From Mytilus trossulus (Eukaryota), in the NCBI RefSeq assembly GCF_036588685.1, contig NC_086374.1, positions 45,384,001 to 45,448,000 of the forward strand: a stretch of DNA of 64,000 nt. The letters run 5' to 3'. Under the pieces are notes generated by a model, which had not been told where the DNA came from, made no database searches, and saw only the letters and a list, made by a program, of their open reading frames with translations. Of this stretch, positions 14,449 to 63,522 are shown piece after piece (position 1 is the first letter of the stretch; every line of letters begins with the position of its first letter). The position numbers and the translations under genes were made by a program.

Positions 14449-14495
14449 TCGTGCGTCCGGAGCGCTTGATTCACCACCAACAGAAACGCTCAAGG
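14449..14495 (-). pseudogene. Degenerate family 2 hammerhead relic
   Basis: Minus strand ttgagcgttt-CTGTTGG...aagcgctccggacgca; flanks match the 35315 copy. Confidence 0.65.
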
Positions 14496-16230
14496 TCGAA
14501 TAGTTGAATGTCGATGATTAGAAACGAAACAGACGAAGAGCTATTCAAACAGTACTTAAAAGAAATCGACAAAACCATGTAAGGTCAAATTTGTAACCTT
14601 TGTTTTTTTTATAATTTTAAAATTTATAAACGGACAATTTTAGAAATGTGTATTATAATTAATTCATTACAATAACGAGGTACTTTATACATACATACAA
14701 TTAATTTGTCGATTATCAAATGTAAGGGTAATTGCCTATTCCGTCTAAGCATTTTGTTTTAAAACATTTTTTAGAAACTTTGATACAAATATAAAAAGGC
14801 CCGTAACTAATGTTAAATTTCTCCTCTATTTGTCTTATATAATGAAATTGCAAGTTCATTAGTTATCCAGCATCACGAATTCTTGGGTTGCAATTTACAG
14901 GTTACAGGCTGCATAGCATGGTTATTGCCCTTGTTCAGTTACTCTGCCTCTTCCTTTATATTAACTGACTTGATAAATGCAACCCGCTTCACACAGTCCA
15001 TATTACCGAATCTTGCAACCCGCATCCCAAACAATATATTATACTCATTCATGATATTTTGTTATAGAAAATTAACAGTTTAGAAAGTTCAAGTCATTTG
15101 CACTGGTTTATACGGAGCTATCAAGTGGCACACATGTTCCGATGATTCAACATAAACGTCAATACGTATATACATCGACAAAATTGGTATGTAAGTTATA
15201 AAAACATTTCGATGTTAGCGTTATCATTTGTTGGTTTTAAAGATCAATCAAGATATTTATGTGTTATAAAATTGACTTTTACGATCCGGCTGTTGTTCCA
15301 ATTCATATTTATTAAAATATAATTTAAGAAAGATAAAAAAAATCTTGATGGTGTTGTACGGTTCAAATAATTTTTCATACAAAGATATTGAACATCGATT
15401 TTCCATTATATTATTTCAAAGATTGAAAATGCTTATTTTTGTTTCTTTTTCGGCCATTTTTATGGGTATTTTGTATCTCACCCTTTGCTTTCAAATCTTG
15501 CACATGTATATTGTACATGTCTGGATTTAAAAAAGTTGCAATATTTCATCGGAGTCATCATTTGTATAGGTCGTTATATTATATGTACGTCATTGTCATG
15601 ATTGAAAAGTTTGCACTAACGCAGCCATAATATGTTGTAAAAAGTCTAAAATACTATAAGTTTAAACACCATGTAGATGTATGGACAAAACGTAATAGTT
15701 CTAAGACACTATTCTATGTTCCGACTATGTTTGAACTCATCAAAGATACCAGGCTTATAATTCATAATGCCACTAATTAAAATACATACACAAACACATA
15801 ATAAATCAAGCAAATACTAATTAAATAAAACACTTATTGTATATTTTATCTCATGGTAGAAACTGTAGATTGACCTTCAAACATCTTTTGATTTTCATTC
15901 GTTGTTGTGCTGTGCTCGCGTTGATGGATACCTCACACCTGCTCTTAATTTACACAAAGTTTTACGATATTTTAAGATAATTTGCAGCAAATTTAATTTT
16001 TAAATATCTGGTTTGATTCAAATGCTACATATACATTAAAAAGAACGTAAACTATAATTATCCCCGATACTCTTTTAGATATGTTTTCTGCATATTTATC
16101 AAAAAGTAATGCAAATACGTAAAATACCGATTGAATTAATGAATTTAGTATACAGACTAGTTTAACAAATACATGTGCTTTAGTGTATACATAAGTGTTC
16201 TGTGCTTAGCTGTCTTATTGTATATTTGTA

Positions 16231-35188: not shown

Positions 35189-35314
35189 ATAGTAAGTAAG
35201 CCTGATAATTTTGTATAAGTTTTATATGAGTTTGGCTATTTATTTTAGGTATTTTTGTCATATAGCTCTTCAATGATTTTCGGTATGTATACATTTTTAA
35301 ATGTTTGGCTTTGA

Positions 35315-35356
35315 GCGTTCCTGATGAAGGTTAATCCAGAAAAGCGTTTCGGACGC
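35315..35356 (+). ncRNA. Type I hammerhead ribozyme, family 2 (minimal stem II)
   Basis: gcguuc-CUGAUGA-agg(uuaau)cca-GAAA-agcguu-UC^ggacgc. Stem I has 6 bp (gcguuc/ggacgc); UUC triplet. Confidence 0.8.
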
Positions 35357-38300
35357 ATATAATTAGTAAACGTGTTGTTTTCAGTTTTTACTGTTGATAA
35401 CTTAGTTGAAAGTAAGTATGAACTGTTGACCCTTGTAAAGTAAAATAACTTTCAAAAATAGAAAGTTATTCCACATCATTCAATTTCATGAACTACACGT
35501 TCATCCACTGACACACGAATTCATGTCCCGTTTAGATAACAGTTGTGGTATTCAACAAAATACAAAAGCGAAAGATAAATTTTTGACTTGAAAGCTTAGA
35601 ATAAAATATTCAATGAATAAATGCAGACAATCAAATTAAAAAGCTATAAATAAAATATAATCGAGTGGAAATTTGTTCATCTTCATTGTTTGATCAATAC
35701 GTGATTAACCTTTGGTATTTAGCTATAGCAGTTAACCACTTCCATGCGTATAACCAAGTTTCAATTTAGGAAATACCATCATTATATTCAAAATTACAGA
35801 CAAAAGAAGCTTTCAGTCTCAATAAACCACTGCCGTAAAGGCACACAAATGTGTTATCAACGGTTATACACATCATTATAAATCACAATCCTAGTTTAGA
35901 AAAGAAAAACAGAAGTATGCATTTCAGTATGAAAGCCCGTATTATGCAAAACAATATGTATAATAAGGGATAATGTTCACAACTCGTAACATGTCGACAG
36001 GGACATTAACTCCTTAATGTATACTTGAAAACAATCTTTTAAAAAGACAAAGTATATAGCACGAATGAATCGTTTTAATAAGAGTATTTGTCTAGAATAC
36101 AGGATGAGGCTGATAAAAATAAGGTGTATTAAGATTCTGTTTTCAACTCGACTAAAATTTGATTTTCGTATTTTTTTTTATAATATATATCTCCATATAT
36201 TTATTTTTCATTTCCATCTTTTCTTTTTTAGTCATAATACATGCGGATTATTTTTTTATACGTTGCAAACTTTAATTTAGAAGAACTGTATGGCAAGGTG
36301 AATTATATAAAATGGAAAAATATGTAGTTGATCTAAAAATGAAAGACGTGCGTTGCAAAGGTAGTTACAGTTACAACAATATCAAGAAACACAGAGAGTA
36401 TAATGCAGAAGATAAACTTTCGTTTGATGAATTTCCCTTTTTGGTATTCTTTTGCTTTTACAAGACTCACTTTAAATTGAAACCGATGCTCCGCAATTGC
36501 ATTTTTTTTATTAGAATTGACAGGACCTCATTGATGTCAATTAAGAATTATGACCGTGTCACGTTCGGTTTTACAAACTATCCAGTTCCTACCGTATCAG
36601 TATAATAATGTATAATTTACCGCATGTTTATGCCAAAGCAATTGCTACTCAATGAATGGTATCCTAAAGGGACTGACAGTCAACTTCTAATTGCACTAAC
36701 CAAGTAGTAGATATTCAAACGTATGCAGTGATGTTAAACATGTTCTATATAATAAGGTTGTATGTCCCTCGAAATGAAGAATTTTCACATTGAATGTCCA
36801 GAAAATGTCAAATTATGGCTCATTGGATACTATTTCGGGTGTAAGGAATGTTTTCGTTACAGTCCTCTTTGCTCTGAAACATTTGCTGCTCGTGTAGCTA
36901 AGAGTTTGACTCTATAGCTGACAATGCTTGCTTTGAAGCCAGGAAAACAAATACAATGTAGTTCCCATTTTCACAAACTCAACGAATCTTTGTTCATACA
37001 ATGCACATACTGTGTGTACATTACTATTATTTTCATGCTTATGGTATATCATTAAAATGACTTTAAATTCTTTACTTTCTGAAATGTTAGTTTGAATAAC
37101 AATTTGACCGATATGTCTGCTCATTTGGTTATTGGTTTTCCTTCTTTTTTGAAAAGCGAAGGTAAGTTTGTCTAATTGGAGGATTGAAAGGTTGCACTTT
37201 TAGTAAATACACAGGGGATAAGACTAAACAGTCTTTGATACCCTGTTTTTATATTCAATTGTAAAATTATTTAATTATATAAATAAATTAACAGATGAAA
37301 AAGACGTTTTGCCTCCTTTAGTCAAAATTTGTGTTTTAGAAAAATTCATCTTAATAGATGTACGGTTGATAAAACAAATTGCGTCGAAACTGTGAAACAA
37401 TTATGTTACAATTATAAGAGCTTAAAGTGCATGCTGTAAATCTTATACAAAGTAATAATGAAATATTACTCCTACCTTGTTAATTGAATCAGTTTCATAC
37501 GATACTTCCTGGATTGTCCGTTTCCGATCTCATTTTTCAAACATCAGCGTCAGAAGGCTAGACATGGTTTGAATCACTGTCAGTGTTATTTTATCTGACC
37601 ATAAGTTTATTACAGGATGATGCGGTCACAACAAAATGTTGAATACGTAAGTGCAAAACCGTGTTTAAATCATTTCATGCTTAATTCAAACAGACGAATT
37701 TAACAAAATACTATTTTAAACCTCTACACTGAAACGGTCAACTACATTCATTTCAAAGATCCAATATTTACTACGTGTATTATATCTTTCTTGTCGTCCT
37801 CTGCTGATTTCAAATAAACGGTTTCTAAATTTATTTGAACAACATACTTGCCAATGCATCACTTTAATGTAATATGAGTTTCTTTTCATTTAAATTATAA
37901 AACTTTTTGAAAGAGTTATCCCACATAAGATTTGAAATATGCGTATGTGTTAAATTAAAATTCTACCTTTCCAGGTAGAATTAGTTTTCTACAGTTGAAA
38001 ACAGGTAATTTTTCGACTTGCAACATCTTCATCTCACCTGTAATATAACATATTTAAAGATTTACAATGTGCAGCACATATACAAGTACTATTATACAAA
38101 AGACATTTTTAAACATATCAAGACAGTACCACAAATTACTCAGGGCCTTTTCTAAGTTCCTACATGAATACAAAGAATTGGTTTGAAGTTGGATTGTACC
38201 CATACAAAACTTTATTACGAACAGGATAGTCCAGCCTAGTATATAGATATAGATTTAGTTTACCGAGCCTGGCACTAATTCTAAAAGGTCATCAGTACAA

Positions 38301-38450
38301 CACGGTAATCAGATCTTTAAATATTGTTTTATTGGTATAAATATTGATTTTGTTATCATTTAGTTAAAACCAAAGTAGCTGATATTTTAGTAATTGAGAT
38401 ACATGATAGTTCTGTTAGTTGGCATTGGCTTTTACTAGCTGTCAGTAACA

Positions 38451-38948: not shown

Positions 38949-39099
38949 TTAGATGTTTTCTGCGTTGTATCGATCAATGTTAAATCATATTCCATTGATT
39001 ATTATAGTCTGTTCATAGTTTCTGTTACATTACTAGTTTTGGTCCTTCTGTTTAGGTTATATGCCTCTTTTAACATGTTTTAGTATTTATTTAATCCTT

Positions 39100-41970: not shown

Positions 41971-42176
41971 AATAGTTATCAAAAGTACCAGGATTATAAT
42001 TTTATACGCCAGACGCGCGTTTCGTCTACACAAGACTCATCAGTGACGCTCAGATCAAAATAGTTAAAAAGCCAAATAAATACAAAGTTGAAGAGCATTG
42101 AGGATCCAAAATTCCAAAAAGTTGTGCCAAATACGGCTAAGGTAATCTACTCCTGGGGTAAGAAAATCCTTAGTAT
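41971..42176 (-). mobile_element. Retrozyme-like HHR-bearing repeat (5'-truncated monomer)
   Basis: Contains the intact HHR. Homologous to 49165-49349(+), 54035-54200(-), 61307-61620(+), 62986-63192(-) and 11031-11140(-); several share the 3' end GGTACCTTTGATAACTATT. Confidence 0.8.
42006..42051 (-). ncRNA. Type I hammerhead ribozyme, family 1, intact
   Basis: Minus strand reads gagcguca-CUGAUGA-gucu(ugugu)agac-GAAA-cgcgcg-UC^uggcgu. Stems I-III pair; GUC triplet; predicted cut at 42012/42011. Confidence 0.92.
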
Positions 42177-44080
42177 TACGTTTACATTATATTATATTTC
42201 AGAGGCAAAAGATACCAATAGGACATATAAACTCTGTAGTCGAAAAAACAGAAACAACTAACAAAATTATGGCAAAACAAAAATTACGTACACAATAAGT
42301 TCGAATAAATAAGGAAAAATGCAGTTTTTGACACGTGTGATGTTTGTAAAAACACTTTTGAGGTAATACCTGAGGACATTTATCCTATAATGTGACATAA
42401 ACAGTTTAGTATAATACTTAGAATACCACACGCTGGTCATGGTTTTCTTCGAAGTTCTTTCGTCCCTCATTTGCAAAGTCACGAACCTTGCAGAGACATT
42501 AAAATGATGAATGATGCAATTGCGGAACCATACAAATTACGTTAATATTATAGTATAAATGAGAGACAAAAGATACAATTAGGACATTTAAACACTTTAG
42601 TCGAAAAAAAGACTAATTGACAACACTTTGGCATCCCTCCCCCCCCAAAAAAAAACCAATCCCAAACAACAGGAATACAGTAGTATAAATGAGAACACAT
42701 AAAGATTTCGTAAGCGTTGTTGAATGTTCGTTTGTACAAACACTTTCCTTAAAATATCTGTGGAATTTTATAATATAAAAGTTGTAATATGATATAAATA
42801 TTTATGTTAAAATATTACAATACCACACGCCTGTTTTCTTCAAAATTGATAAGTCACGAATTTTGAAGGGACACTTATATTCGAATGGTGTAACTGCAGT
42901 TCCATACAAATTAAGTTTATATGAAATATTATAAATGAGAGACAAACGATAATTATATGATATTCAAACTCTGTAGTGGAACAAGAAACTGACATGGCCA
43001 TGACAAAAAAAAAAAGAAACCCACAAAACATATCATATAAAACTAAGGACTGAGTAACACGAATCACACCTCATACCGGTGGTGATTTCATGTGCTTCGG
43101 AAAGGTACGAAGAGCTTGCTCAACATACGCCATGGAATTTATAAATTGTAAGGATTTTGCAGGTTGTGCTGTACCTCAGTTGTCTATTCTAATTTCCATT
43201 TTGATAAGTGTTGCTGTCTTTTTGCAGCATATTATGCAACGTTTATAATCTTCATTATTAAATCATTTTGAGTCTACATTTTCATTTATGCAGCAAAAAC
43301 ATCTGATTGCGGGATTAATTATAAACGATACAGTGTATTTAATTAATAGCCAAACTATATTATGTTACGCTATGATCCAAACATACAAAAACAGAAATGT
43401 GCGTCTTCGATTTAGAATTGTAGTTTACATGTACTTAGATATATAGTCAGACTGTCACAATTATATATCATCCGACTATTATACTTCATGAACTTCAAAA
43501 TACAAATTTTAGAAATCCCCAAAAAATACAGGAAGCAGGAATTTTGTTTACAAAGTTTGAAACAGTGTAACAACTTAATGTTTCATGAGGAACACTTAAA
43601 GTTGACAGTGCAAATACTTGATAAAAGTCATCTTTGAATATTTATATCTATTTCAGAAGAAGAGGATGTTCTTTGAAAAAGATCATCAATTTTTTGCTGA
43701 ACATAATATTAACTTCCTTAATTTAATAATGAAATATTTTTCCATCAGGCTAACAGAGAGGATATCAAGTATCAAAAGTCCAAACACATTTGTCAGTGTT
43801 GGATAATTTTAAACATGTGCCCACAATCGATTAAAACTTTAAAAGTATCAAAAGCAAACAACTGAATGGTTTTATTACAGGTAAAGGAAAACAAACCTGA
43901 CATAATTTAACAAAATTTGCAATTCTCATCATAACTATCATTATATTAACTGCGTATTTAAATGTAAATACAAAGAAAATAAAGAATTGTTTTGTTCTAT
44001 TCACTTGTTTATAAATAAAACATTTTATCTAGACTAGTTCAATTTATTTTTGAAAAGCAACCCTGAAACACTAAATCGCT

Positions 44081-44138
44081 ATGTTTACCATATTATCATG
44101 CACAATAGTAGCATTTTACTTGGTGCAATTAAAATTTG
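44081..44138 (+). CDS. Coding exon 1, signal peptide MFTILSCTIVAFYLVQLKF(V)
   Basis: ATG, hydrophobic stretch and strong phase-1 donor G|GTAAGT. Joins in frame to 49773 giving a VSG-SE cleavage-like site. A likely 5'UTR intron lies at 43881-44057 (CAG|GTAAAG ... TTTTGAAAAG). Confidence 0.65.
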
Positions 44139-47100
44139 GTAAGTAATGATTAATTTATATAATGTAATAATTAAATACAGATTTGATAAAGAGATAGATG
44201 TTGTTTATTTAGGCCTAGAGCGAACGCTTGATTGATTGGTGTTTAAGGACATTTTCCGGAGTGCACAGAGAGAACCACCGACCTTTAGCAAGAAAACCGA
44301 CAATCCTAGTCAAGTAAGTTTGGAGTCGATTTCACCTGTCCCTTGCGGGATTCGAACTCACAACTACAGTGTTAACTGACTAGTGATACAGTGGTTGTAC
44401 TACTTTAGCCCATTTAGGTTTTCAACTAGCTAAGATTTTGCAGGTTAGCGGTTTTTGTCAACCTTGTTTTTAGAAAGATATCGTAAAAATGTTATTATTT
44501 TGTGTTATCAGATACAAATCGGAGAAATAAATATACTCTTATATGTATCACGTTTTACAACAACAAAAACTGAAACAGGAACAATGTGTATCTGCACCAT
44601 ATACACATTGTTTATGTTTTTAAGCGCATTGTATGTTGAGTCATATCAACCCTTCTTCAATATATATGCTCCCTTCGAAAGCATCTGTTTTTACAGCAAA
44701 TAATAAACATATATACACGAAAAATATTTGTTTTTTATTAATTGAACTCATCAGAAGACGGGACCTTGGACTCTATGAAGAGCACTAGATACCCACGGTA
44801 ACAAAAGAGCAGTCAATTAAGGACCATTGGTACGATATTGGATGCTAATATATCTGGTTGTATGTGGAAGCTGTTTTTTGATGAGTTCCAAAAGGTTATA
44901 AGTTTCTAACATGTTGATTTTACCTATTTATTTTACTTGACACCATATATAATCAGATATTCAAATTTGTGGAAAATTGTACCCCACACCCTTTCAGGCG
45001 TAGTCCGATACAATTTTAAGAGACATTTGTAAATCGAATTGCCGAAAAATCTTTTGCGGATTTTATGCGAGTGTCATACAAGTGAGAGGTTTAGCTAGTC
45101 GTAAAACCAATTTTTATCCACCTTCTTCTGAACGTGTAAACGCACGGAGTCAGGAATATGACAGATGTTATCCATGTGTTTGAGGTTTTGATTTTTTTTC
45201 GAGGCTTTTTTTGTTACTTAATTTTTTGCCTTTTTTTGCGAAAACAAGTTGGTAGTACGGTGACTTATAGTTGTAAATTACCTGGGAATCATATCACATC
45301 TTTTTTATAGATACAATGTAGGCAGAAAATTAACTTTTTCAAATTATTCAACATAACTTTTATTGACCATCGACTCCTTGTAGGAGGTATTGACCTTCCA
45401 TTTCATTTATATTTGAACACTCCTCTGTGTTGTTTGTTAACTCTGATAGTTAGAATATCAGCATGAAAAATTATCGGCAAATTGAAATAATCAAATAAAT
45501 CAACATTCCTTTACTTGTTTATCGAATTCAATTAGATGTTGTTATCCTGTAACGGTAAGTTTTGTCTTTTTTTTTGTCTCTTTTAAAAAAAAAAAACAAT
45601 AATCGAAATAGAATAAGTGTTTCCTGCAACTATGATCAACATTTTAAGATGAGACATTATAAGCATTCATTTCAAATAAAGGTAGATTACTTTGATATAC
45701 TGTAGACAAAATTTGAACAGCAAGACGAGATCACCAACAATATTGTGTATATCGTTAATTGACTTATTTTAAGGGTTATTTTCCTAAGTTAAATAGCTTC
45801 ACTTAAAAAAAAAAAAATTATCCTAGTAAATCGGTTTAGACTAAACTTGGGCACTCTTATTTAGGATGTGCACGACGACTCCCACTATTGCTGATAATGA
45901 TTTAAAATTGAGCATAGTTTTTCCAGTTATAAGGTGTTGAGCCTTTTGTTTTACTGTTTCAGGTAATGGAGAGGAGACTTCTCCGGGATCATGCAGTTGT
46001 AAGTTCATTTGTTTGTATGACATTTACTTTTTGGCCTCATAGACATTTTTTTTAATTATTTTTAGAGATAATATCATATCTTTCAGTTTCAATAACTAAT
46101 GTTTTACAAGATATTGTAAACTTGGAAATTGCTTTTCTGTAATATATAAATTTTAGATAAGGTTTAAATAATACAATATAATTCTTCTGTTAAACTGTAA
46201 GGACAAATTTATTATTCGCGATCATAGTCAACTCATGTGGTTAAATGCGAGTTCCTTAATCTACTCAATAAATATATATTAGCCAAAAGAAGTTCATACA
46301 ATTCAAATGTTGAGATGGGGGGGGGGGTTCCTTATAAATAAGTTATTATATTTAGATCAAGTGACAGTAAACTGACTATTTTTACGTTCTTAAACAAATA
46401 ATAATGTTAATTGAATGTGTTGTTTTCACTGTATTCACTGTTTCTGATTATAACTTTTTTGTTGTTATTATAATGATTTTTTACTCATGTTTTTTTTCTG
46501 GCGCTATAAACAATTGTTTTAATTCTGCCTCTTTTCAATTATTATAAGCGATAATCGAAAATTAACAAAATTGAATTCACATACGAACAAATGCATAAGT
46601 CAAGGTTAATTTATAACTGTAAGTCCGATATTATCAGACAGCATATGGATACATGCACACACATATTCGCGAGACAGAACATACAGTAGAAAGTGACAAT
46701 GTTGGATTCAGTCTTTGTCTTTCTCTATATGAAAACCACCTTTTATTTAATAGTTATGACAAAAATCTTACCATATCATCATCGATCGTTATTTTTCAAT
46801 ACAAGTCAAGGACCAATTTAAGAATTTTACTCTATGCACAAAATCCTTATCGTCGTCATAACATGGTAAACACAGGCAACAGTAGTATACGGATGTGCAA
46901 AACTCATAAATCGATATAAAAAAACACAAATCCGGGTCACAAACTAAAACCAAGGGAAACGCATTAAATATAAGGGGAGAATGACGACACAACATCACGA
47001 TGTAACACACACAGAAACGAACTACGCATTAGACAAAATCCATTGAGAATACCAAATATAACATCAAAACTAGATGCATGAATTTAGGATAGAAAAGTGC

Positions 47101-50100
47101 CGTGACACGTCTTATAATAATAACGTCTTATGATAACGCGGAAGAATACAAAGTTTTGTTTCCAATGTTAGAGCAGCTAAGATTGTATTCGAACAGTATT
47201 ATTTTGAACATGTACAGATGTGATCAATTTGTGGCAAAAATTTCCTGGCATTTCCCGAGAAAGTTAGCATGCATAGGTATTCCAATTGATTAGGTATAAA
47301 GATATATCAATATAAATTGTTAACATATACATGATCATTATACAATTACATTGGTAATTACGTTTAAGTATACATCTGTCCGTTCTTGAAACATGCGTTT
47401 CTTCTAATAATAATGGTTACCAAACATAGTCTATATTGCGAATGAAAATATAACCTAAATGATTGAACATATATTTGTTATATGCTAAATTGCATTTTTA
47501 TGTACACCATCCTCCTCAAAACTTATTAAGAAAAGTTATCATTTCATATAAGTGTATTACATTTTTAATGGCCCTGAAAATGAAATATGAAGGCGTATCG
47601 TTTATTGCACGGGTTCTGTATTAGAATTTGAGTAAGGTAAATAAATAGATAAATCAACTGTTTTCATTTGTACTACGAATGTAAAAGTAATTATACATGT
47701 ATGTCAAACATGTGCATTTTGTTACTTGATTTTATTATTTTTGTCTATTTACTCTATGCAGTAATCAAATTCAATTCCATGACGTCAATTTGACTGCTAT
47801 TAAAACTGCGGTCAGAAAGCGAGTTAGAGTGGTCTTTCTTTGTTCGTTGTTTATCTAACAAATTGAATCGTTCGTCTTTCTACAACATTACATTGTTACA
47901 ATCAACACACAAATAAAATGTGTTCTTATCAAGTCACTTAATGTATTCATATTAAAGGAAAGTATGTAAAAAACTCAACTTTATTTAAGAATTAAATCCG
48001 TTTTTTGTAACTTCACTGGGGATGTAAAAGCGTTGACCGAATTACATATAGCCATTACATTGACTGTCCCTTTGGTATCTTTCGTCCGTCCCTCTCTTGT
48101 ATGAAGCACGGAAACGATTCATTCCAAATATGTGCACACTGTGAACGCTTTTACAACCCTGTGAAGTTATAAAAAGAATTCAATACTTATTATTACCTTT
48201 TTTTTTTTTTAGCTAAGATCATTAAAACACGATTTTTAACAAGTTTACTAATTTACCTGTGCACTTTATTGTGGAACTTCGGGTCATCATTAATGATAAA
48301 TTGTATTGTGTAATGAAATTGATTAAGGAATAACACGAGATGTGCAGTTAGCCAATTAGAATAATTGAAACATACATGTAATGTAATTATTCGTAGTTAT
48401 ACGTGTAGTTCCATATAGCTCCATATCATTTTAATAAGTTCATATTAATATTCATATTCTAAGATTCCGGGTTTATAATTTTGTACGCCAGACGCAAGCT
48501 GATACTTTAGATAGACAAATTCCGGAGGAAAATTCTGGAAGTTGTGCCACAATCAATATCTCGCAGTAGCGAAAACCTTAGAGTTTTGAATAATTCCCCA
48601 TTTTCTATGCAGTACAGAAAATGATCAAATCAATGATGCATAATATTCATTTCAGAAGTTATGGCTACTGGAGTTGGAATAAACGTTTACCGACTCTTTA
48701 AGTCATACATTTGTAAATAGGTACACACGTATCTGTTCGTTATTTATGTCTTGAACTGTGCATTAATATATGAACAATTTCAGGTGAAAAATAATAAGGT
48801 TAATTTATACATTGTACATAAATAAATCTTCCACTCCGATTCTCCTCTTTTCGTTTAACTGTTATACTCGGTACAACAGTTTTCTATTTTACAATTACCA
48901 TAATTACTAATACATATAGAACTGAACAGTACAAGATCAAGATTGCCTGATCCGCTCTATGCACAACATTTGGTTGCGATAACCTTTTTATGTTTAAGGT
49001 GTTCCCGGGGATGTGTTATTGTAAGTGCTCGAAAACATGTTTAACGGCCACCACATTTGTCTATGTCTGTCTTAGATCAGTATTCAGTGGTTTTTGTCTG
49101 TCCTAGGCATTTTTCTTTTTTTGTTTAAGGGCCGTCTGTTTTTTCATTTCATCTCTTTTCTTATCCAAAGTAGATACCGTAACCTTGGCCGTATTTGGCA
49201 CAGATTTTTGGAACTTATGGTTCTCAATGCTCTTTGACTTTGTACTTGTTTTGGCTTTCGAACTTTTCTTTATCAAAACGTTACTTATGAGTCTTGTGTG
49301 GACGAGGTGTGCGAATTTATAATAAAGCATGCTACCTTTTGATAGCTATAATATGTGTGTTTCTCTGTTCTGCATGTTCTTCTAATTTTTTGTAGTCCTG
49401 TCTTGAAATATCGTCATTTAATGTTATATTTAACATAGCAATAAAAGCGGGAGGTTTGGCTAGCCACAAAACCAGGTTCAATCCACCATATTTTCTTTAA
49501 ATGTCCTTTTCCAAGTCCGGAAAATGGTCATTGTTATATTATAGTTCGTTTCTGCGTGTGTGGCATTTTGGTGTTGTGTTGCTGTTGTGTCTTTGTTCTC
49601 CTATTTTATTTGATGTGTTTCCCTCAGTTTTAGTTTGTAAGCCAGGATTGTTTTTTTCTCAATCGATTTATGAGTTTCGAACAGCGGAATACTACTGTTG
49701 CCTTTTTTTTCAATTCTTTACATTTTGTCATCTCGAGTACTTTAAATATGCTTATTCGGCTCATGGCTTTAGTTTCAGGAAGTGAACCACAACTTTTATT
49801 TTCCAACAACACGCATATACTGTTGAATGCTTTGGATAGTGACAAGTCGAGGGTACTTGTAGAAACAATGACTAGTTCTGTTTCATTTGTTGACTATCAT
49901 TTAACGGATGGATCTATTTACTGGTCAGATCAAAATAAGCAGACAATTAGCAGGTATCATTATAACTGTAACTTCTAAGCTTCTGTACACAATTCTTGTA
50001 TCGTTTATATTTTGACAATCGAATAAAAATAATGTAACTTCATGTGATTTTAATTTTAGAAATGAAAAATTGAATAGATGAATGATGAGAGAGATAAAGA

Positions 50101-53100
50101 GAGAATAAATCAAGACCAAAGTCTGTAGTTTATGTCATATGACTCTTCGAAAATTAATTATTATGAAATTATTGACAAATATATTATAGTGTATTACGAT
50201 AAAACATACAATAGTCGTATTTCAATGGTGTTTGTATATATAATTTTTTTCTCTCAAGGAAAACGTGTTCATTAGGTAACGAAAACTCAATCACAGAAAC
50301 TATAATTCAAAACTCGAAAGCCATGGGAATAGCCGTAGACTCAATAAACGATCATCTATATTGGGCAGACATAGATAGAGCTGCTATAAAAAGGTCTAGT
50401 TTGAATGGTTCCAGTATTGAAGTTATTTTAGACGAATCATTGCAAACTCCCGTTGCCATTACTATAGACACCTCAAACAGGTAAATAATGAGAGTTTCAA
50501 TAAATCTAGATTAAACAAGAATTTAATGTAAGAGAAAAATGGCAGTTGTCACTATTGTTAGGCTGTTCTTCGGTATTGTCTTATTATTCGAATGATATGT
50601 CTGTTTATAAGTCATGAAATTGTTCAAAACTAAAGTTACAACTATCTCAAGCAAATCTGAACTTTTACTACGTTTGCTGCTTCTAGATCTGGTTGTAATG
50701 CTGAACATGCATTATGTGTTTGACTTTACCAAATTATAGTGTTGAAGGTATCTAATTTCCAGTTTGTAACACGGGTCTGACACAATGAAATCGGTTTCTA
50801 ATATTTTTATTATGTTAAAGATTTGTAATTCAGTAAAAAGGATTTTATCGATTCTTTATTATACAGTATTTATTTTATATTAACTTATTATATGCATTAA
50901 TGGGTCAAGAAAAGGTGTTGGTTTTGTGATAAGAATAAAACAAAGTAACAGAATCATATACTCTTAAAAACAATCCAACAAATCAAGATAGATCATGGCT
51001 TGCTAGTAAACAGATAAGGATACGTTTGGTCTAGTATAGAAATTTGTATCATGCTGAAAGGCCCAAAAGAAAACTATTCACTTTTTATCTGTTAAAAACA
51101 AACTCTATGATGTAACCATTTAAAAAGATTCTACATATCAGAGTGCAAGTTATTGACAGCAAGCTTTACATGTACATACGGAAACAGCTAATAGATAATA
51201 GTGATAGGTAAATATATAATACTGTGATGAGTATGAGTAGAAAATTTTCACAATATTCCCGTTCATGCATATCAAAATAATCTTGATAACTACAGTAAAA
51301 AAAAAACAGAAACAAAAAATGGTAATCAACTATACAAACTTTTAGGAACATCACAAACATTTTATATGAGTGATGTTTATGAGGCAAAACTCTCACCAAA
51401 AACTTGTAGAATAAGATATTTTTATGACAATATAATGTTTCTTCATCGTTTATGTAAATTAAAATATCCTGCCAACCACATATACCATAATTTTAAACAA
51501 ATGTATTATCGTTTACAGCTGGTTATACTTCAGTGATCACGGCAGACATACAATCGAGAAATGTAAATTTGATGGAAGTAGCAGACATACACTTATAAAT
51601 GAAGACGTACAGACCCCATATGGTTTAGCCTTGGGTAAATAATTGAAGTTTCTTAATCAACCTGTACAGTGTCTAAAAAAGTAGTAATTTGTATACCGCT
51701 AAGCTACTATTTACATTTGCGCCATTTCTTTATTAGCACAAATTTGCTTTTTAAATAATATAATACTTTGGGACTGATTTTTTTTAATTTTTCAATTTTA
51801 AGCCATGGCGTTGTCAGTTTATTTTCGATCTATGAGTTTGACTGTCCCTTTGGTATCTTTACTACCTCTTTCGTGCATCAGATACCACTTTCGACAATAA
51901 AGTCTTAGCTCAAGGCCAAAATATTTGAAAAATCTAAAATTTATCAGTTTGGGCTAATGTATTATCTGGTATACTTGCCAATAGACAATTATCCACTACG
52001 GATCACAGGACGCAGATGTTATCAAGTTTAGGTCACCATAACGTCTTCATTAAATTTGGACAAAACTCATTTCGTTTACGAAGGGCTATATCAAAAGGTC
52101 TCCAGCATAACAAAAGAGTGACTAAAGATACCAGAGGGACAGTCAAACTTATAAATCGAATATAAACTGACAACTCTATGGCTAAAAATGAAAAAAGTCA
52201 AACAGACCATCAATAGTAAACATGACACAACATAAAAAGTAAAGAATGAACAACACGAACCCCACCAAAAACTAGGGTGGATCTCACGTGCTCCGGCAGG
52301 GTAAGCAGATCCTGCTTCATACGTGACACCCGTCGTGCTGCTCATGTGATAACAAATTCGGTAAATTGTCATGCAACAATTTAAATGACGAAACAAGCGT
52401 TATGACTTATGCTTAAACATTAAACTAAAAACGACTATGATAGACAACCACTTACTAGTGTACTACATGACTTTAATAGTCACATTTGTGACTAACTCCC
52501 TAACCTTGTAAATTGATGATACACACAACATAAGAACACTGTATAAATCAGTTTAAAAGGTCTTCAATCTTGGGCTAAAAACAAAAATAACTAATAAATG
52601 ATATCAGACCAGCATATGAGAACACCATGGGTTATTGTTTGGAAGGTTTTTTGTTGCTCAATCTAGTTTTCTAGTGTTTTGAGTACTGTTGTTTAACTTT
52701 TCATCGTTTTTCGAATTTTTGCCATGGCTTGTCAGTTTGTTTTCGAATAATGAGTTTGAATACAGCTTTGGTATATTTTGCCCTCTTTTAAAGTGACTAA
52801 TCAGATATTTATCAAACGATAAGATGAATATGAGTATTTGCATTATTTCTAACCAATTTTACCATCGTTTCGGATCAAATGGGTACGGTTGATTTACAAT
52901 TTACACAAGCTCTTTCAGGAAATGTAGTCATTAACAGACATTTATATTTACATACAGACTTGAACTCAAAAAGATTATATTGGACCGATTCTGCATTGTA
53001 TCACATCAAATCTTCTAATTTGGATGGCACTGATGTTAAAGTAGTCTCCATAGATGTATCATCATTGGTAGACATTTCTATTGTTGTTATGGGAATCGAC

Positions 53101-55491
53101 TTATATGGATCTTACTTGTATGTTAGTAATCTTGGAACTGGAGTATACAGGATACAGAAAAACAAACAGAATGCTGTGCCACACAGAATATCTGGGACGC
53201 ATCATTCAGCTTATGGTGTAAAGATAACAAGTAAGCATCATGAAACAAATAACTATTTATACTGTTTTCTTGGTGAACGTCCTAACAACATATATAACAA
53301 ATAGTGTTTATCCGTATATAAGCGTTTCTCAGCTTCCTTACCTTTCAAAATTTTAGAATTCATTCAAGCCAATGAAACTGGGCCCACACTAATGAACAAG
53401 CTTCCTTACTTTTCAAAATTTTAGAATTCATTCAAGCCAATGAAACTGGGCCCACACTAATGAACAATCAAACAGTATCACTTGTTGATAAGTAATACAT
53501 TGTAATTCCAAAATGACGCGTATGGTGTCTACAACTATAGCATTGCACCGTTAATCAAATATCTGCTACGAATGAACTTACTTTATTGTTCAAAAGAATA
53601 AATGAAAACTTCTGTAACTTGGTAATGTCTTCTATAAAATTGTTTTTAAAGACAGGTTTATATTACTTTTATATATGAATTTATTTATATTCGTATGACG
53701 TTTGGCATCATTCCGAGTCATATCTGAAGCCGCTCAACCTGTCGATAGTATGATACCATGATTCATCCCTATTCAATTACAAAATTTTATCAATGGTTGT
53801 CATAATTTAAAAGTTTTGAAATCTATATGCTACACAACAGACGGTAAACGTGAGACACACAAAACACAAACATACATATAGATGCCAACATAGAAAGTAG
53901 TTGAATTGATAACATAACGTCATATGTGTGGCTGAAAAATTGTCTTTTATGACCCCAAATCAGACGGAAAACCCGCATAACAATACATTAATAGGAAAGA
54001 AAGAAAATCAGCTTCTAAATAAAATAAGTATAGATAGCAGGATTTTGTACGCCAGACGAACTGTTCTTCTCCAAGAGACTCATTAGTGACGATCTAATCA
54101 AACAACGTCAACAAATCCCAAAAGGTATCAACTTGTGTATTATTATGGACCCACATTTCTCACTGGATTCTCAAAAATACAGCTAAGATAATCTTCTCCT
54201 GACTTATGTCTGAAAAAAACGGGAAAATAAGTATATTTGCCTGCACATTGCACTTACTACATGTATTTATAATGATTGATATTGTAGAAAGTCACAGTGA
54301 CACAAGTGATGCAACAACGATGAAAGGTAAGGTCATTTTGTCTTTTTCATTTTCATCATCATAATCGCTATCGTTTGTTTTTTATCTCCTTTTCATTTTT
54401 TAGTATAGTTTAGTAAATATTTATGTTGTTACAATAATATAATACATGCTCACATTCAATTTGTATATATATATATATATTGTATTGTGGAGAAGGCTAA
54501 CTTGTGTTTGATCCTTTTTCGCATTGATCAAATCAAATATGTTTAAACTAAAATATTATTCAAGATATATTTCATGGCGATGCAACATATATAATTGAAA
54601 CGATATTTCACCAGATTCCCGATTGCCACCATTTTTTTGAGTAACAATTAGGCCAGCAGAATCCAGGCGAATTGCAAACGATCTCAAATCATTCCATCCA
54701 CATTACAGTGAACAATTTCATTAACCACCTCTATGAACTTTTGTGTTTTGTGTTTTCTTATGGCAGTATGCTTCAAATATTCAGTACATAACGACATGTG
54801 ATTACAGCACATGTTTATAAAATCAGTACTTTAAATCTAGAGACTTCCTGTGTTTTTTGTAATTTCATCTGTGTATATATCTCCAAGACTAGGTGATTGT
54901 GCGTAAATAACAAACTTATCTTGCTGGAAAATAATATTCAAATCAATAAATAAGTATACTCTACATGTTTTACTTGAGTTAAATTGTAACGGAATGCGCG
55001 CAAATGAAACCAATAGTTGCGCGATAACATTTGTATTCCCGGTGAAAGTCTACCTGTTTGCTCGTATTCTCCTGTATGAAGAGCTTTTTATATACATAGA
55101 GTGTTATATATCCATGATGGGTAAATATTTAAAATTGGTATCTATCTGGTATCTCTGATAGCGAAAGTCTACCTGTTGGCTCTTATTCCCTTGTATGAAG
55201 AGCTTGTTATATACCTAGAGTGTTATATATTCATGATGGGTAAACATTTAAAATGGGTGTCTTGCATCTCTGATGTCATCGTAGAATTTCCTCATCCAGA
55301 TTTTGGATAAATATCATTTACACAACATGTCTGCATCAAAGTATTAAAACAATCAAAATCTGTAAGATATTTCGAACAAATAATTTTCCTTTTTTTGTTA
55401 TTTTTCAGGATCTGTTGGACAAATGATCATACTGTTTGCTGGAATCCTATTCGTTGAATTTCAAAACATTCATATCCATATAAAATGGTGA
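44081..55491 (+). CDS. Stand-alone YWTD beta-propeller protein (LRP/LDLR class B repeat family), 323 aa; join(44081..44138,49773..49953,50259..50480,51519..51634,52958..53230,54288..54326,55409..55491)
   Basis: All introns are GT-AG with compatible phases (1,2,2,1,1,1). Exons total 972 nt = 324 codons, open to TGA at 55489-91. Six blade motifs: LLFSN, IYWSD, LYWAD, LYFSD, LYWTD, LYVSN. Signal peptide MFTILSCTIVAFYLVQLKFVSG-SE; hydrophobic C-terminus. Confidence 0.85.
44228..44412 (-). mobile_element. tRNA-derived SINE with V-domain-like core, internally deleted, in intron 1
   Basis: B box GAGTTCGAATCCC, GGTCGGTGGTTCTCTCTGTGCACTCCGG core and TTAAACACCAATCAATCAA tail. Confidence 0.7.
47986..48189. 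mobile_element. Fold-back/palindromic MITE-like element with a nested retroelement tail
   Basis: ~55-bp inverted arms (TAACTTCACTGGGGATGTAAAAGCGTTGACC vs GTGAACGCTTTTACAACCCTGTGAAGTTA); foreign sequence at ~48050-48096. Confidence 0.7.
49165..49349 (+). mobile_element. Retrozyme-like repeat copy in intron 1, HHR core destroyed
   Basis: acgtta-CTTATGA-gtcttgtgtggac-GAGG at 49278-49313; flanks match the family. Confidence 0.7.
49773..49953 (+). CDS. Coding exon 2 (SGSEPQLLFSNN...VDYHLTDGSIYWSDQNKQTISR)
   Basis: Acceptor TTTAG at 49772 (alternative in-frame CAG at 49778), donor AG|GTATCA; LLFSN and YWSD motifs. Confidence 0.9.
50259..50480 (+). CDS. Coding exon 3 (KTCSLG...AMGIAVDSINDHLYWADIDRAAIKRSSLNGS...TPVAITIDTSNS)
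   Basis: Polypyrimidine tract plus AAG acceptor, donor AG|GTAAAT; classic GIAVD-LYWAD-I.RSSLNG repeat. Missing from the ORF track. Confidence 0.93.
51519..51634 (+). CDS. Coding exon 4 (WLYFSDHGRHTIEKCKFDGSSRHTLINEDVQTPYGLAL)
   Basis: TTTACAG acceptor, G|GTAAAT donor; YWTD-type repeat with P.GLALD. Confidence 0.93.
52112..52366 (-). mobile_element. Copy of the 58488 family in intron 4
   Basis: Near-colinear reverse complement of 58560-58805; explains the similar spurious ORFs SSTTGVT.EAGSAYP and SNTTGATCGAGSDYP. Confidence 0.8.
52958..53230 (+). CDS. Coding exon 5 (DLNSKRLYWTDSALYHIKSSNLDGTD...GIDLYGSYLYVSN...AYGVKIT)
   Basis: CATACAG acceptor, A|GTAAGC donor; canonical YWTD motif; lies within ORF 52879..53304. 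Confidence 0.93.
53331..53467. repeat. Tandem duplication, 68 bp x2 (intron 5)
   Basis: AGCTTCCTTAC.TTTCAAAATTTTAGAATTCATTCAAGCCAATGAAACTGGGCCCACACTAATGAACA occurs twice. Confidence 0.93.
54035..54200 (-). mobile_element. Degenerate retrozyme-like repeat copy in intron 5
   Basis: tacgccagacg...gactcattagtgacg; core reads CUAAUGA/GAAC. Confidence 0.6.
54288..54326 (+). CDS. Coding exon 6, 39-nt Ser/Thr linker micro-exon (KSHSDTSDATTMK)
   Basis: TTGTAG acceptor, AAG|GTAAGG donor, symmetric phase 1, open frame. Confidence 0.7.
55044..55273. repeat. Tandem duplication, ~119 bp x2 (intron 6)
   Basis: GAAAGTCTACCTGTT.GCTC.TATTC...ATCTCTGAT at 55044 and 55163. Confidence 0.88.
55409..55491 (+). 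CDS. Terminal coding exon (GSVGQMIILFAGILFVEFQNIHIHIKW*)
   Basis: Long polypyrimidine tract with TTTTTCAG acceptor, phase 1, hydrophobic stretch, stop followed by AATAAA. Confidence 0.75.
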
Positions 55492-55495
55492 ACAA

Positions 55496-55501
55496 AATAA
55501 A
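55496..55501 (+). promoter_or_regulatory. Candidate polyadenylation signal (second candidate at 55848-55853)
   Basis: AATAAA just after the stop codon; weak evidence in AT-rich DNA. Confidence 0.3.
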
Positions 55502-55521
55502 ATAATTAAACTCTCCTCATT

Positions 55522-55620
55522 GATTTGAATTTTGAATTTATAAATTTTCCCTATACTAGCAGCAATATACCGACTTCACCTGCGTATAGGATATATATTT
55601 TCCAACTCATTCAGTATTGT
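55522..55620 (+). mobile_element. Penelope-like RT C-terminal (thumb region) fragment
   Basis: Translates as DLNFEFINFPYTSSNIPTSPAYRIYIFQLIQYC, matching the DFNFxIxNFPxxxSNIPxxPAYGxYISQLxRY motif I recognise from invertebrate Penelope-like RTs. Confidence 0.7.
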
Positions 55621-57699
55621 TTAGAAACTATTTCATAGATTCTAGGTACTAACGTTGTTGGTCATCTTAATTAGGTGTTAAAGTCATCTTTGCTGTCCTT
55701 GTTTATTATTTACTCTTACCATTTACACAATTTAGATTATTTACTGATGACGTGGATCCTTATTTATATACCCACCATTGTAGTACTGTGTTATTGTCAA
55801 TTTTGAGTAATTGTCTTCATTTTTACTTATATGTTTTGGTTTATAGAAATAAAGATTATATTACAATGTTAACTGCTCATACATTCTTGTTAATTTAATT
55901 GAATTCTATGCGACTTTTATACAATTGACTTGTCTAGCTAGCTATAAAACCAGGTTTAATTCCAAAAGATTTTTTGACAAATTTCACACCAACTTCATTA
56001 CAAAAAGTTAAAATAACATTTTCTCAAAAAGAGATAAAAAATGTTTGTATTGTTGTGAAATTTATTTATTTTGAAATTTGTGTTTAACTCCGCTGTTGGA
56101 GATTACTAATTAGCGCCTATAAAAAACTGTGATTTTGTTTTTTTTTGGTAAATTAATGCCTTCGATAATAAAATCTTCTGAGTACTGAATTATTATAAAC
56201 TGAATAACTGCTTCCTGTTTTTATAGTAGTAATTAAGTCAATAAGGAGTGAACTTTCTTTTCTTAATAAATGATAAATTGAAAAAATATCACTTTATTTT
56301 ATAACTATTTTTAATTTCATTTTGCAAAATAAATTTGATTTAAAAATTTGGTTTGTTTTGGGTTAAATCTATAGAACTCTTGTATACAGTTTGCTTTTTT
56401 ATTGGTTTCCTTATATTTAGTTTGACAAAATGTATTATAAAAATTACCACAAGAGGAGCAGAAAGATACCAGAGAGATATTCAATTGGTACCATTAATGT
56501 TATAATTATCAAACTCATTTATCGAACATTTTAAATCAACCCAAAATGAATTGAAATATTAAAAGTCCTGTGACTGAATAGCAAGGTTCACATCAACTCT
56601 AGTGTAGAGTCGTTTGTTTGACGTCAAAATGTAAACGTCACACAGGAAGAGATATAAAAAAAAATTGTCGTTCAAAGTATATGTAAAATTATGATAAAAG
56701 AATAACATAATGGCATTATAATAGAATAATAACAATGAATTTCTGGCAATGAACTACTTAATATGACAAACGATGAAAGAATTATCTTTCTGATGACAAA
56801 CTATCCTAGAAAGCTGGCTAAGTATACAGTGAAAGCGTTCTGGTATAGACGTGAAGTGTTATATAATACATGAACAGTTTGATAAACAGTATATAGCAAT
56901 TCCAGTTGACAGTATTGATTGTATTTGACTGTAAAATGAAAATGTAAAAAGGTTACTTCATGGTCAATCTGAATGTTTCCAGTTTTTTTACTTTAAATAT
57001 TAATTTATTATGCATTCAACTGGACATTTATTAAATCGATTTCCTAATAACTTAATTCTTTTTATATAAGTTTGAATTTTTCAATATTAATTAATTATTT
57101 TGAAATTTAGCTTAATCTTACTTTTCATTAATTTGTTTGAAATCCGTGATAAAAGAATTACGTTTTATTATTTGAAAGTGACTTATAGACCCAATGTGTC
57201 GGTTGTATTTTATTGTGTATGTAATATATTTGTACTTTACTGTGATTACACATGTCACTATAATAAACATTTACTTACTTACTTACTTACTATAACATAA
57301 TGGCGAGATGTTTAAAAGTACAGAGACACGTCATGAGTACCAAAGTAACACAAAAGTCACACGTACAAAACACACCAGCAAAAATAAAACATAATACAAA
57401 CAACACATTGACGGGATGTATACGTACCGAGCCATGCCAAATGGATATCACCGAAAACAGATCAGACAATAAAAGTTATATTAATAATAGAACAAATAAA
57501 AATAAAAAACCAATACAAATAACGTAAGTACGCAGAATCTATACACCAAGACCATCATGTATTATTTTTGAAGTTGATACGGATTATTTAATAACAATGA
57601 CGATTTACCTTCAAATGAACTTTTTTTTTAGAAAAAGGACAAAACTTTCGGAGATATATCCCTGGTTCATTCACTTTCTGCTCAGACACAAAGTCGAAA

Positions 57700-57960
57700 A
57701 GTTGGCAAACACAAACCCCACCAAGACCTGGGTGAGAGATTGCAGCAGGTGCTCCGAAATGGTACACAGATCCTGCTACACATGTGGCACCCGTCGTGTT
57801 GCTCATGTTATTATTAACTTGGTTAATAGTTTAATTCGATAGGTCACAGTCGTGAAAAAGGGAACGGAAGTGTAGGTACGACGTGAGGAACATATCCGAT
57901 AACATCTGTGAAACGGATATTCAATTCATGATGGCGTCCGTAAAATTTTCGAAGGGTTGA
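57700..57960 (-). mobile_element. Penelope-like element fragment (ORF end STLRKFYGRHHEL plus 3' region)
   Basis: Minus-strand translation of 57960-57922; the rest is homologous to 58488-58660. Confidence 0.65.
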
Positions 57961-57996
57961 TATAGTTTTAACTTTTTTTTCTCAAGCTTACGTGTC

Positions 57997-58142
57997 CAAT
58001 AAAATTAACGCTACCAATTTTCTTGCACCAGATGCGCATTTCGACAATATTTGTCTCTTCAGTGATGCTCGTGGCCAAAATATTTGAAATCCAAAGCTTA
58101 CATAAAAGATGAAGAGCTATAATCCAAAAGGTTAAAAAAGTA
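57997..58142 (-). mobile_element. Family 3 HHR-bearing repeat
   Basis: Carries the intact HHR; flank GAAGAGC...ATCCAAAA..AAAAAG resembles family 1; a relic copy lies at 51873-51935. Confidence 0.7.
58025..58070 (-). ncRNA. Type I hammerhead ribozyme, family 3, intact
   Basis: Minus strand reads gagcauca-CUGAAGA-gacaa(aua)uuguc-GAAA-ugcgca-UC^uggugc. AUC triplet; predicted cut at 58031/58030. Confidence 0.92.
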
Positions 58143-58373
58143 TACTGTTGTGTATTTTGTTAATTGAAATTTAAGTATGTACTTCAAAACAATTCTGAAA
58201 GTATCAAGTGTTCTTTTGTTTAATTTTTGTCTTTTTTTACATCTTTTTCTTTCTGTATTTTTTTTCATACTTACTACAACACCATTTTGCTAATACTTTA
58301 TTTTTGTAATATTTGAATGCTTAAAATTACTGACTGTATCTTTTAACTGTTATTGATTTTTTATTTGTATGTT

Positions 58374-61306: not shown

Positions 61307-61620
61307 ACAGAGGGTATCACCAGCACAGTAGTCTGAACTTCGGTGTTGACATGAATATCAATTATATGGTCATTTGTAAGAGTTAACTGTTTGCAAAAGT
61401 ATGAAATATTCGAAATACTAAGGATGTTCCCATCCCAGGCATAGATTATTTTAGCAGTATTTGGCAAAAGTTTTTGATTTTTTGGTTCTCAGTGCTCTTC
61501 AACTTTATACTCGTTTGGCTGTTTAACTATTTTTATCTTTTTGATCACTGCTGAGTCTTATGGAGACGAAACGCGCATATGGTGAATCAAATTAAAAGTC
61601 TGGTACCTTTGACAACAATT
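61307..61620 (+). mobile_element. Longest copy (~310 bp) of the retrozyme-like repeat, with mutated HHR (CUGCUGA) at 61543-61585
   Basis: Aligns with the reverse complement of 41971-42176; ends GGTACCTTTGACAACAATT. Confidence 0.75.
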
Positions 61621-62962: not shown

Positions 62963-62985
62963 TCTTATTACACTAGGACATGCTA

Positions 62986-63192
62986 ATAGTTATCAAAGGT
63001 ACCTGGCTTTTAATTTAATACACCATACGTGCGTTTCGTCTAATCGAGAATCTTCAATTACGCTCAGAGCAAAAAAGTAAAGAAAGCCAAACAACTACAA
63101 AATTGAAGATCATTGGTGACCCAAAAATTCTAAAAAGCGGAGCCAAATACAGCTAGGGGTTTCTATGCCTAGGATAAAAAAATCATAAGTAT
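62986..63192 (-). mobile_element. Retrozyme-like repeat copy with mutated HHR (UUGAAGA) at 63019-63066
   Basis: Colinear with 41971-42176. Confidence 0.75.
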
Positions 63193-63522
63193 TTAAATTA
63201 GAGCATTGTGATAGAGAGATGAAAGATACCATACAGTTATTCAAACTCATAAATTAACAACAATTTGACAACGCCATGTTCAAATAACGAAAAATTATCA
63301 ATAGACATAGAACAGTCTACAAAGCTAAAGACTGAGGTACACGAACTTTGCCAAACGTTAATATTTGTATTTGTCTCATCAAAATCACACACACCGAATA
63401 TGAAATGTTTGATAGTGCGTGCTTAAATGAGACATATTTATCTAGAATACTCAAAAATTCCAGTCAAACATTTATTTTTACATAATCGTACAAATGCGTC
63501 AATGCTTCCATTATAGCATTTA

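What the first reader, a model, noticed from the sequence alone, without database searches (positions are those of the whole stretch)
42006..58070. Stem III is a short palindrome in all three HHR families, suggesting dimeric (trans) self-cleavage
Seen: stem III plus loop is ACGCGCGU (family 1), AUGCGCAU (family 3) and AAGCG(U/C)UU (family 2; the relic at 14466 keeps AGCGCT). The sequences differ but self-complementarity is kept. A 2-bp intramolecular stem III is weak, whereas two copies can form an 8-bp intermolecular helix, as known for double-hammerhead structures such as newt satellite 2. Inference: solitary copies may be silent unless paired with another copy or a multimeric transcript, giving concentration-dependent cleavage.
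Basis: partly seen in the sequence, partly recalled or inferred. Interest (0 to 1): 0.7.

Follow-up and report, generated by a model that had tools for sequence, protein, structure and literature searches.

The report
Mussel retrozyme hammerheads with palindromic loops
These are lone, cut-short copies of very common tandem repeats that carry a hammerhead-type RNA motif; its third helix and loop read as a palindrome in every expanded family examined, so neighbouring copies in one RNA likely pair and cut each other, an arrangement already described in print, which makes the finding real but ordinary.

Summary
The palindromes are real: ACGCGCGU at 42013-42020, AUGCGCAU at 58032-58039; the family-2 copy lies outside the given range (35342-35349, AAGCGUUU; family norm AAGCGCUU). 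All are solitary, 5'-truncated insertions of ~350-nt tandem non-LTR retrozymes (24,382, 1,196 and 7,696 core matches genome-wide), likely in a mussel. Two further tandem families carry AUCCGGAU and AUCUAGAU, so both loop pairs, including the innermost one that cannot form inside one ribozyme, change in a compensatory way. Folding energies favour the double hammerhead over two single ones by 8-15 kcal/mol in real tandem units. Dimeric cleavage is therefore likely, but mainly in cis between adjacent units of a multimeric transcript; trans, concentration-dependent activation of lone copies is weakly supported (predicted Kd micromolar or worse; no read ends pile up at the cut site). A published single mussel repeat cleaved at ~0.1/min, so dimer dependence is probably not absolute. 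Palindromic helix III and dimer folding were published in 2014 (PMC4209133), mussel retrozymes in 2020 (PMC7229834). This scan noted the same idea before, in this genome and others. Already known; interest low.

The parts
41971..42180 (-). Family-1 retrozyme, solitary 5'-truncated copy (-169 to +41 relative to the cut site; unit is 354-355 nt)
   Evidence: 98.1% identical to an array unit; arrays
42006..42049 (-). Type I hammerhead, family 1: 6-bp stem I, intact core, 4-bp stem II, predicted cut after C at 42012
42013..42020 (-). Palindromic helix III plus loop, ACGCGCGU
   Evidence: 18,401 of 24,382 family-1 core matches carry it
57998..58144 (-). Family-3 retrozyme, solitary 5'-truncated copy (-114 to +33; unit about 350 nt)
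   Evidence: 93.2% to an array unit
58025..58068 (-). Type I hammerhead, family 3, predicted cut after C at 58031; palindrome AUGCGCAU at 58032-58039
   Evidence: 5,209 of 7,696 matches of this core pattern carry it
35221..35391 (+). Family-2 retrozyme, solitary truncated copy (-137 to +41); hammerhead 35315-35356 with short stem II flanked by A and A; helix III AAGCGUUU at 35342-35349
11042..11138 (-). Family-1-type truncated copy; hammerhead 11073-11116 with ACGCGCGU and one stem I mismatch
14443..14655 (-). Family-2 relic; keeps AGCGCT (14461-14466) but both core boxes are lost
54042..54201 (-). Decayed family-1 copy, core and palindrome broken, inside the LDL-receptor-repeat gene region
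48458..48495 (-). Family-1 3' tail only, no ribozyme core
49156..49305 (+). Family-1 body fragment ending before the cut site
61310..61620 (+). Decayed family-1 copy of about 310 nt, core A6 changed, palindrome broken
62985..63194 (-). Decayed family-1 copy, core C3 and palindrome changed

Best explanation
The motifs are type I hammerheads in lone, 5'-truncated copies of ~350-nt tandem repeats (non-LTR retrozymes), and their palindromic helix III likely lets two adjacent ribozymes in one multimeric array transcript fold into a double hammerhead that would cut out unit-length RNA. Shown: sequence, tandem arrays, palindromes, compensatory changes between families, abundant sense-strand RNA running unbroken across the cut site. 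Inferred: read-through transcription of an array; cis pairing of unit n with unit n+1 (swapped stems I, 8-bp helix III); release and ligation of monomers to circles in which the lone ribozyme is mostly unfolded; copying by a Penelope-like reverse transcriptase from a fixed point 33-41 nt past the cut site, which leaves mostly truncated single-ribozyme copies like those in this window. Such lone copies would cleave slowly as monomers or not at all and cannot release a unit; they are likely dead ends, not concentration sensors.
For: Arrays of 349-355 nt for families 1-3 and about 550-570 nt for families 4-5. Loop changes GCGC to CCGG (727 exact matches) and CCGG to CUAG (774 matches of TCTNNA, 90 of the 100 listed are TCTAGA) keep self-complementarity; 2 of the 3 differences between the family-3 and family-4 ribozymes over 37 nt are that one symmetric pair (rough p 0.009). 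On a 9-row alignment all 36 helix III cells pair and the innermost pair shows CG 6, GC 2, UA 1. Unrelated metagenome type I motifs carry ACAGCUGU (4 of 5 rows passing the stem filter, of 123 rows) and one carries ACGAUCGU. Single-hammerhead fold probability 1e-5 to 2e-4; the double hammerhead is the two-strand minimum-energy structure for families 1, 3 and 4, not for 2 and 5; in real two-unit stretches double beats two singles by 7.8-15.0 kcal/mol. Stem I pair probability at most 0.03 in 6 of 6 circular monomers. RNA-seq: 3,786-10,684 reads per run on family 1, sense-biased in three runs, flat depth across the cut site, unit-length back-joints. Literature: PMC4209133, PMC7229834.
Against: A cloned single mussel repeat self-cleaved at about 0.1/min and the authors state that most invertebrate type I hammerheads cleave efficiently as monomers (PMC7229834; PMC7761336). 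Even the double form lies 2-12 kcal/mol above the minimum-energy fold of the two-unit RNA, and the model ignores tertiary contacts and Mg2+. Only two compensatory loop events are seen in this genome, and CG to UA can be helped by CpG decay. Five neighbouring units of one family-5 array carry the non-palindromic TCTAAA. RNA-seq cannot tell circles from uncut multimers and shows no cut ends, so cleavage itself was not observed. Whether the published clone is family 1 could not be checked (supplement unreadable).
Confidence: 0.68

Rival explanations
1. The ribozymes work as ordinary monomers with a 2-bp helix III (or a third pair closing a 2-nt loop) stabilised by Mg2+, tertiary contacts or proteins; the palindrome is inherited from dimeric ancestors or is only an optional booster.
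For: Single genomic mussel repeat cleaved at about 0.1/min; review says invertebrate motifs cleave efficiently as monomers; families 1-3 are homologous at about 70%, so a shared GCGC loop is partly descent.
Against: Innermost loop pair changes CG to UA in an expanded family and is GC or AU in unrelated motifs; a monomer cannot use that pair. Mussel motifs are reported to lack most loop 1-loop 2 contact nucleotides. Predicted monomer fold is rare.
Confidence: 0.2
2. One reading: cleavage is bimolecular; lone copies are silent until they meet another copy or an abundant retrozyme RNA in trans, which makes cleavage depend on concentration and lets retrozyme RNAs cut host transcripts that carry lone copies.
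For: 20 of 24 cores in 664 kb of unselected DNA are solitary; family RNA is abundant, 0.03-0.15% of reads; the family-3 44-mer has a predicted Kd near 8e-7 M; the published single-unit assay was co-transcriptional with no concentration series in the main text.
Against: Predicted Kd 2e-3 M (42006 copy) and 0.5 M (35315 copy); no pile-up of read ends at the cut site in 4 of 4 runs for either reference; solitary copies decay (12 of 20 keep the palindrome against 4 of 4 tandem ones); the copies at 42006 and 58025 are antisense to the neighbouring gene.
Confidence: 0.08
3. The repeats spread mainly as uncut RNA or by DNA-level array expansion and the ribozyme rarely acts in vivo; the palindrome is a passenger.
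For: Genomic copies span the cut site and so do RNA reads; 8 of 9 Xenopus dimers gave no cleavage in a 2026 preprint.
Against: Unit-length circular RNAs were cloned from mussel tissue; core, stems and palindrome are kept with compensatory changes across five families.
Confidence: 0.04

Closest known systems
Non-LTR retrozymes of Mytilus galloprovincialis (Cervera and de la Pena 2020, PMC7229834; parts 1-4 of 6 read, which hold the whole main text; supplement not readable)
   Same: Type I hammerhead in ~350-nt, low-GC, non-coding tandem repeats; abundant RNA; more than one related ribozyme family.
   Different: The paper counts ~5,000 motifs in two families and treats the mussel ribozyme as a monomer; here over 33,000 core matches in at least five tandem families, two with 550-570-nt units, and loop covariation that points to a dimer mode. 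Sequence identity with the published clones was not checkable.
Canonical and minimal metazoan type I hammerheads with palindromic helix III/loop 3 (Cervera and de la Pena 2014, PMC4209133; parts 1-2 of 4 read)
   Different: Families 1, 3, 4, 5 are canonical rather than minimal; family 2 has the extra unpaired base before stem II but keeps a 6-nt insert in helix III.
Newt satellite 2 and axolotl HHR_Amex1/Amex2 (PMC7229834 main text; Forster 1988 and Lunse 2017 seen only as titles in reference lists)
   Same: Tandem ~330-350-nt repeats; Amex2 has a 2-bp helix III with tetraloop; dimeric constructs cleave much better than monomers.
   Different: Amex1 has one pair only; axolotl monomers cleave 6-22% per hour against ~0.1/min for the mussel clone.
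Penelope-like element pseudo-LTRs (PMC8557442, passages; bioRxiv 10.64898/2026.07.22.740005, parts 1-3 of 5)
   Same: Fixed 3' end, 5' truncation, a 30-40-bp tail, (TA)n targeting in Naiads and Neptune; retrozymes proposed as non-autonomous PLE derivatives.
   Different: No reverse transcriptase ORF in the units (longest stop-free stretch 58-99 aa); the autonomous partner was not identified here.

Membership tests
Type I hammerhead ribozyme | Conserved core CUGANGA...GAAA...UH around three helices, helix I open | tested here: met
   for 42006, 58025, 35315, 11073
Type I hammerhead ribozyme | Compensatory changes in the stems | tested here: met
   5 of 6 stem I pairs change on both sides, 90 of 90 cells pair (9 hand-picked rows)
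Type I hammerhead ribozyme | Self-cleavage at C17 | not testable with these tools
   no read-end pile-up in fragmented RNA-seq; a mussel repeat cleaved in vitro in PMC7229834
Non-LTR retrozyme | Hammerhead in short tandem repeats, GC under 50% | tested here: met
   family level: units 349-570 nt, GC 0.32-0.39; the window copies themselves are solitary fragments
Non-LTR retrozyme | Non-coding | tested here: met
Non-LTR retrozyme | Expressed as abundant unit-length linear and circular RNA | tested here: inconclusive
   abundant sense RNA with unit-length back-joints; circles and uncut multimers cannot be told apart
Non-LTR retrozyme | At least two ribozymes per insertion to release a unit | tested here: not met
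   for the window copies only: one ribozyme each; met for the arrays
Double-hammerhead (dimeric) ribozyme | Short helix III with self-complementary loop | tested here: met
Double-hammerhead (dimeric) ribozyme | Dimer cleaves much faster than monomer, palindrome required | not testable with these tools
   energies favour it; the published monomer rate of ~0.1/min speaks against an absolute need
Minimal hammerhead of autonomous Penelope-like elements | Motif in the pseudo-LTR of an RT-coding element | tested here: not met
   no RT ORF in units; window copies are fragments of the non-coding units

The most novel reading that the evidence does not exclude
Each retrozyme family uses its own palindrome as a pairing code, and the very abundant family RNAs act in trans as sequence-specific cutters of host transcripts that carry one of the tens of thousands of lone copies, making a genome-wide, family-specific RNA cleavage network.
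Probability: 0.06. Interest if true: 0.75.

Novelty: already known. Interest (0 to 1): 0.18.

Why it matters
The principle and the element class are published. What this adds is small: natural compensatory changes in both loop pairs suggest that mussel retrozyme ribozymes, described in print as monomeric, still use the double-hammerhead mode, and five natural palindromes give ready-made swap mutants. Dimer dependence would explain how multimers are cut while unit circles stay closed. Two 550-570-nt, (TA)n-targeting families that share only the ribozyme with family 3 did not appear in the papers read.

Tried and rejected
Rfam at gathering score found nothing. Dispersed double mutants looked like new palindromic families but were rejected as covariation: CACGTG is the expected CpG decay of CGCGCG, and the inner pairs (AT 16, GT 5, AC 4, GC 3, counted by eye) match independent mutation (expected about 15, 6, 5, 2 from the margins). 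A genome-wide count of tandem pairs is not available; the solitary share rests on 664 kb. The run index listed no RNA holder; raw-read runs of the same species label were laid instead and are not from the assembled individual. Comparing sense and antisense depth to test cleavage of lone copies failed because other families map to the shared block. The 'GTAT' flank after many family-1 ends is a search bias: 3 of 17 unselected ends show it. The conserved block read backwards resembles a hammerhead in family 1 only, rejected. No link between the conserved block and a Naiad or Neptune element was found in local DNA. Lunse 2017 was not held; the 2020 supplement may hold the sequences needed to match families to published clones.
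Full report
Observation. A structure scan of both strands found two strict type I hammerheads, at 42006-42049 (-) and 58025-58068 (-); a looser scan and motif search added 11073-11116 (-), 35315-35356 (+) and decayed copies. Rfam Hammerhead_1 matches the two family-1 copies just below its gathering score (32.6 and 31.2 bits). Helix III plus loop reads ACGCGCGU, AUGCGCAU and, for the family-2 copy outside the given range, AAGCGUUU. The relic at 14461-14466 keeps AGCGCT but has lost its core.

What the elements are. The window lies in a 1.30-Gb genome, likely a mussel (inference from repeat length and the literature). Exact core patterns match 24,382 (family 1), 1,196 (family 2) and 7,696 (family-3 type) places, with 0 for the reversed controls. 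Fetched arrays show head-to-tail units of 354-355, 349-351 and 349-352 nt, non-coding, GC 0.36-0.39 and about 70% alike between families. This is the anatomy of the mussel non-LTR retrozymes of Cervera and de la Pena 2020 (PMC7229834; main text read). The window's copies are shorter than one unit: -169 to +41, -114 to +33 and -137 to +41 around the cut site. In 664 kb of unselected DNA 20 of 24 cores are solitary. Copies share a fixed 3' end: 16 of 40 family-1 alignments end at +41 to +43, 11 of 16 family-2 at +40 and 15 of 15 family-3 at +33 to +35, with variable 5' ends. That resembles the 5' truncation and 30-40-bp tail of Penelope-like elements (PMC8557442 passages; preprint) and means the template ran across the cut site: a circle or an uncut multimer.

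Is the palindrome selected? Families 1-3 share the loop GCGC by descent and differ only in a pair that also forms in a monomer, so the window alone cannot decide. The genome holds two more tandem families with the family-3 core: AUCCGGAU (727 exact matches, units ~550-570 nt) and AUCUAGAU (774 matches of TCTNNA, 90 of 100 listed; units ~550 nt). They are 86% alike and share only the ribozyme with family 3; the TCTAGA copies cluster on a tree of the unit body, with one origin not ruled out and weak support (20 rows). So both loop pairs changed once each and both times stayed complementary; the inner pair cannot form within one ribozyme. Unrelated metagenome motifs add ACAGCUGU and ACGAUCGU. On nine hand-picked rows every helix III cell pairs; rows are related, so the shuffle values are not probabilities. 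Against: only two events in this genome; dispersed 'palindromic' double mutants are neutral decay; one array has five TCTAAA units; a dispersed group with AAGCGUUU and a broken stem II (44 of 98 hits, by eye) spread without tandems.

Energetics (nearest-neighbour model, no Mg2+ or tertiary contacts). The 2-bp hairpin costs +1.7 to +4.1 kcal/mol; the 8-bp duplex gives -7 to -13 for the perfect palindromes and -5 for AAGCGUUU; the single hammerhead has probability 1e-5 to 2e-4. In real two-unit stretches the cis double hammerhead beats two singles by 7.8-15.0 kcal/mol but stays 2-12 above the minimum-energy fold. Trans association of the window's isolated motifs is predicted at Kd about 2e-3 M (42006), 8e-7 M (58025) and 0.5 M (35315). 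In 6 of 6 circular monomers stem I is predicted unformed (at most 0.03).

RNA. Four raw-read runs of a species holding this repeat gave 3,786-10,684 reads on a family-1 unit out of 7-13 million records; three runs are sense-biased, depth is flat across the cut site, unit-length back-joints occur, and no place collects read ends. Family 4/5 is likewise sense-biased in two runs, with reads crossing the cut site. This fits circles or uncut multimers; it does not show cleavage.

Mechanism. Most likely (0.68): array transcripts fold double hammerheads between adjacent units in cis and release monomers, which are ligated; the lone ribozyme in the circle is mostly off; a Penelope-like enzyme copies the RNA from a fixed point, leaving mainly truncated single-ribozyme copies that decay (12 of 20 solitary against 4 of 4 tandem cores keep the palindrome; small numbers). 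All steps after the sequence and expression data are inferred. Rivals: monomeric activity with an optional palindrome (0.2), supported by the published ~0.1/min for a single mussel repeat and the review's statement; true trans activation (0.08); passenger ribozyme (0.04).

Comparison and novelty. PMC4209133 states that most metazoan type I hammerheads have a 1-2-bp helix III with a palindromic loop and fold as dimers in tandem repeats; reviews repeat it (PMC6765202 and PMC6466107 passages; PMC2837043 passages, describe a different double form in crickets). Lunse 2017 and Forster 1988 were seen only as titles. The finding is already known; the modest addition is covariation suggesting a dimer mode in a group described as monomeric. 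Earlier notes of this scan reached the same view in this and other genomes; they are unchecked and not counted as support. Interest 0.18.

Noticed in passing
L102, L110 (family 4); L091, L112 (family 5): Two 550-570-nt tandem families share only about 50 nt around the ribozyme with family 3, end at +370 to +373 and insert at (TA)n in 13 of 22 loci; likely a ribozyme capture by a different element with another helper. Expressed, sense-biased.
   Followed up: partly
array units of families 1-3, about +42 to +125 (L098, L101, L100); partial at window 61310-61350: A block conserved at 85-88% between families starts right after the fixed 3' end of insertions and folds into the same bulged stem-loop plus a UUCG hairpin in all three. 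Earlier scan notes link it to Naiads; no such match in my local DNA.
   Followed up: partly
L064, L066-L077: Dispersed, near-identical group of ribozyme-like motifs with AAGCGUUU and a broken stem II (44 of 98 hits), no tandems; probably a dead copy carried by another repeat.
   Followed up: partly
L284:797-2900: Penelope-like ORF (461 aa, GIY-YIG-type end judged by eye) followed by a minimal hammerhead-like motif near 2799.
   Followed up: no
window 10280-11320 and 4600-5050; L280:2866-6100: Decayed 3' ends resembling Naiad-type reverse transcriptase (recognised by eye, no Pfam support); the 11073 ribozyme copy is inserted in the trailing repeat. L280 holds two tandem 430-aa ORFs of this type with a hammerhead-core-like string on the opposite strand.
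   Followed up: no
window about 45960-55410 (+): Exons of a gene with LDL-receptor class B repeats (PF00058, 22.7 bits); the copies at 42006, 54042 and 58025 are antisense to it.
   Followed up: partly
L116-L117 versus window 61310-63194: L117 (next 10 kb) repeats the two decayed family-1 copies with the same flanks, pointing to a local segmental duplication.
   Followed up: no
L172, L195, L212, L214, L235 (metagenomes): A type I hammerhead family with ACAGCUGU and covarying stems; L172 has two copies on opposite strands 450 nt apart.
   Followed up: no
window 16169-16558, 38359-39005, 29300-29690: 30-nt and 56-nt minisatellites and a complex palindromic repeat cluster.
   Followed up: no
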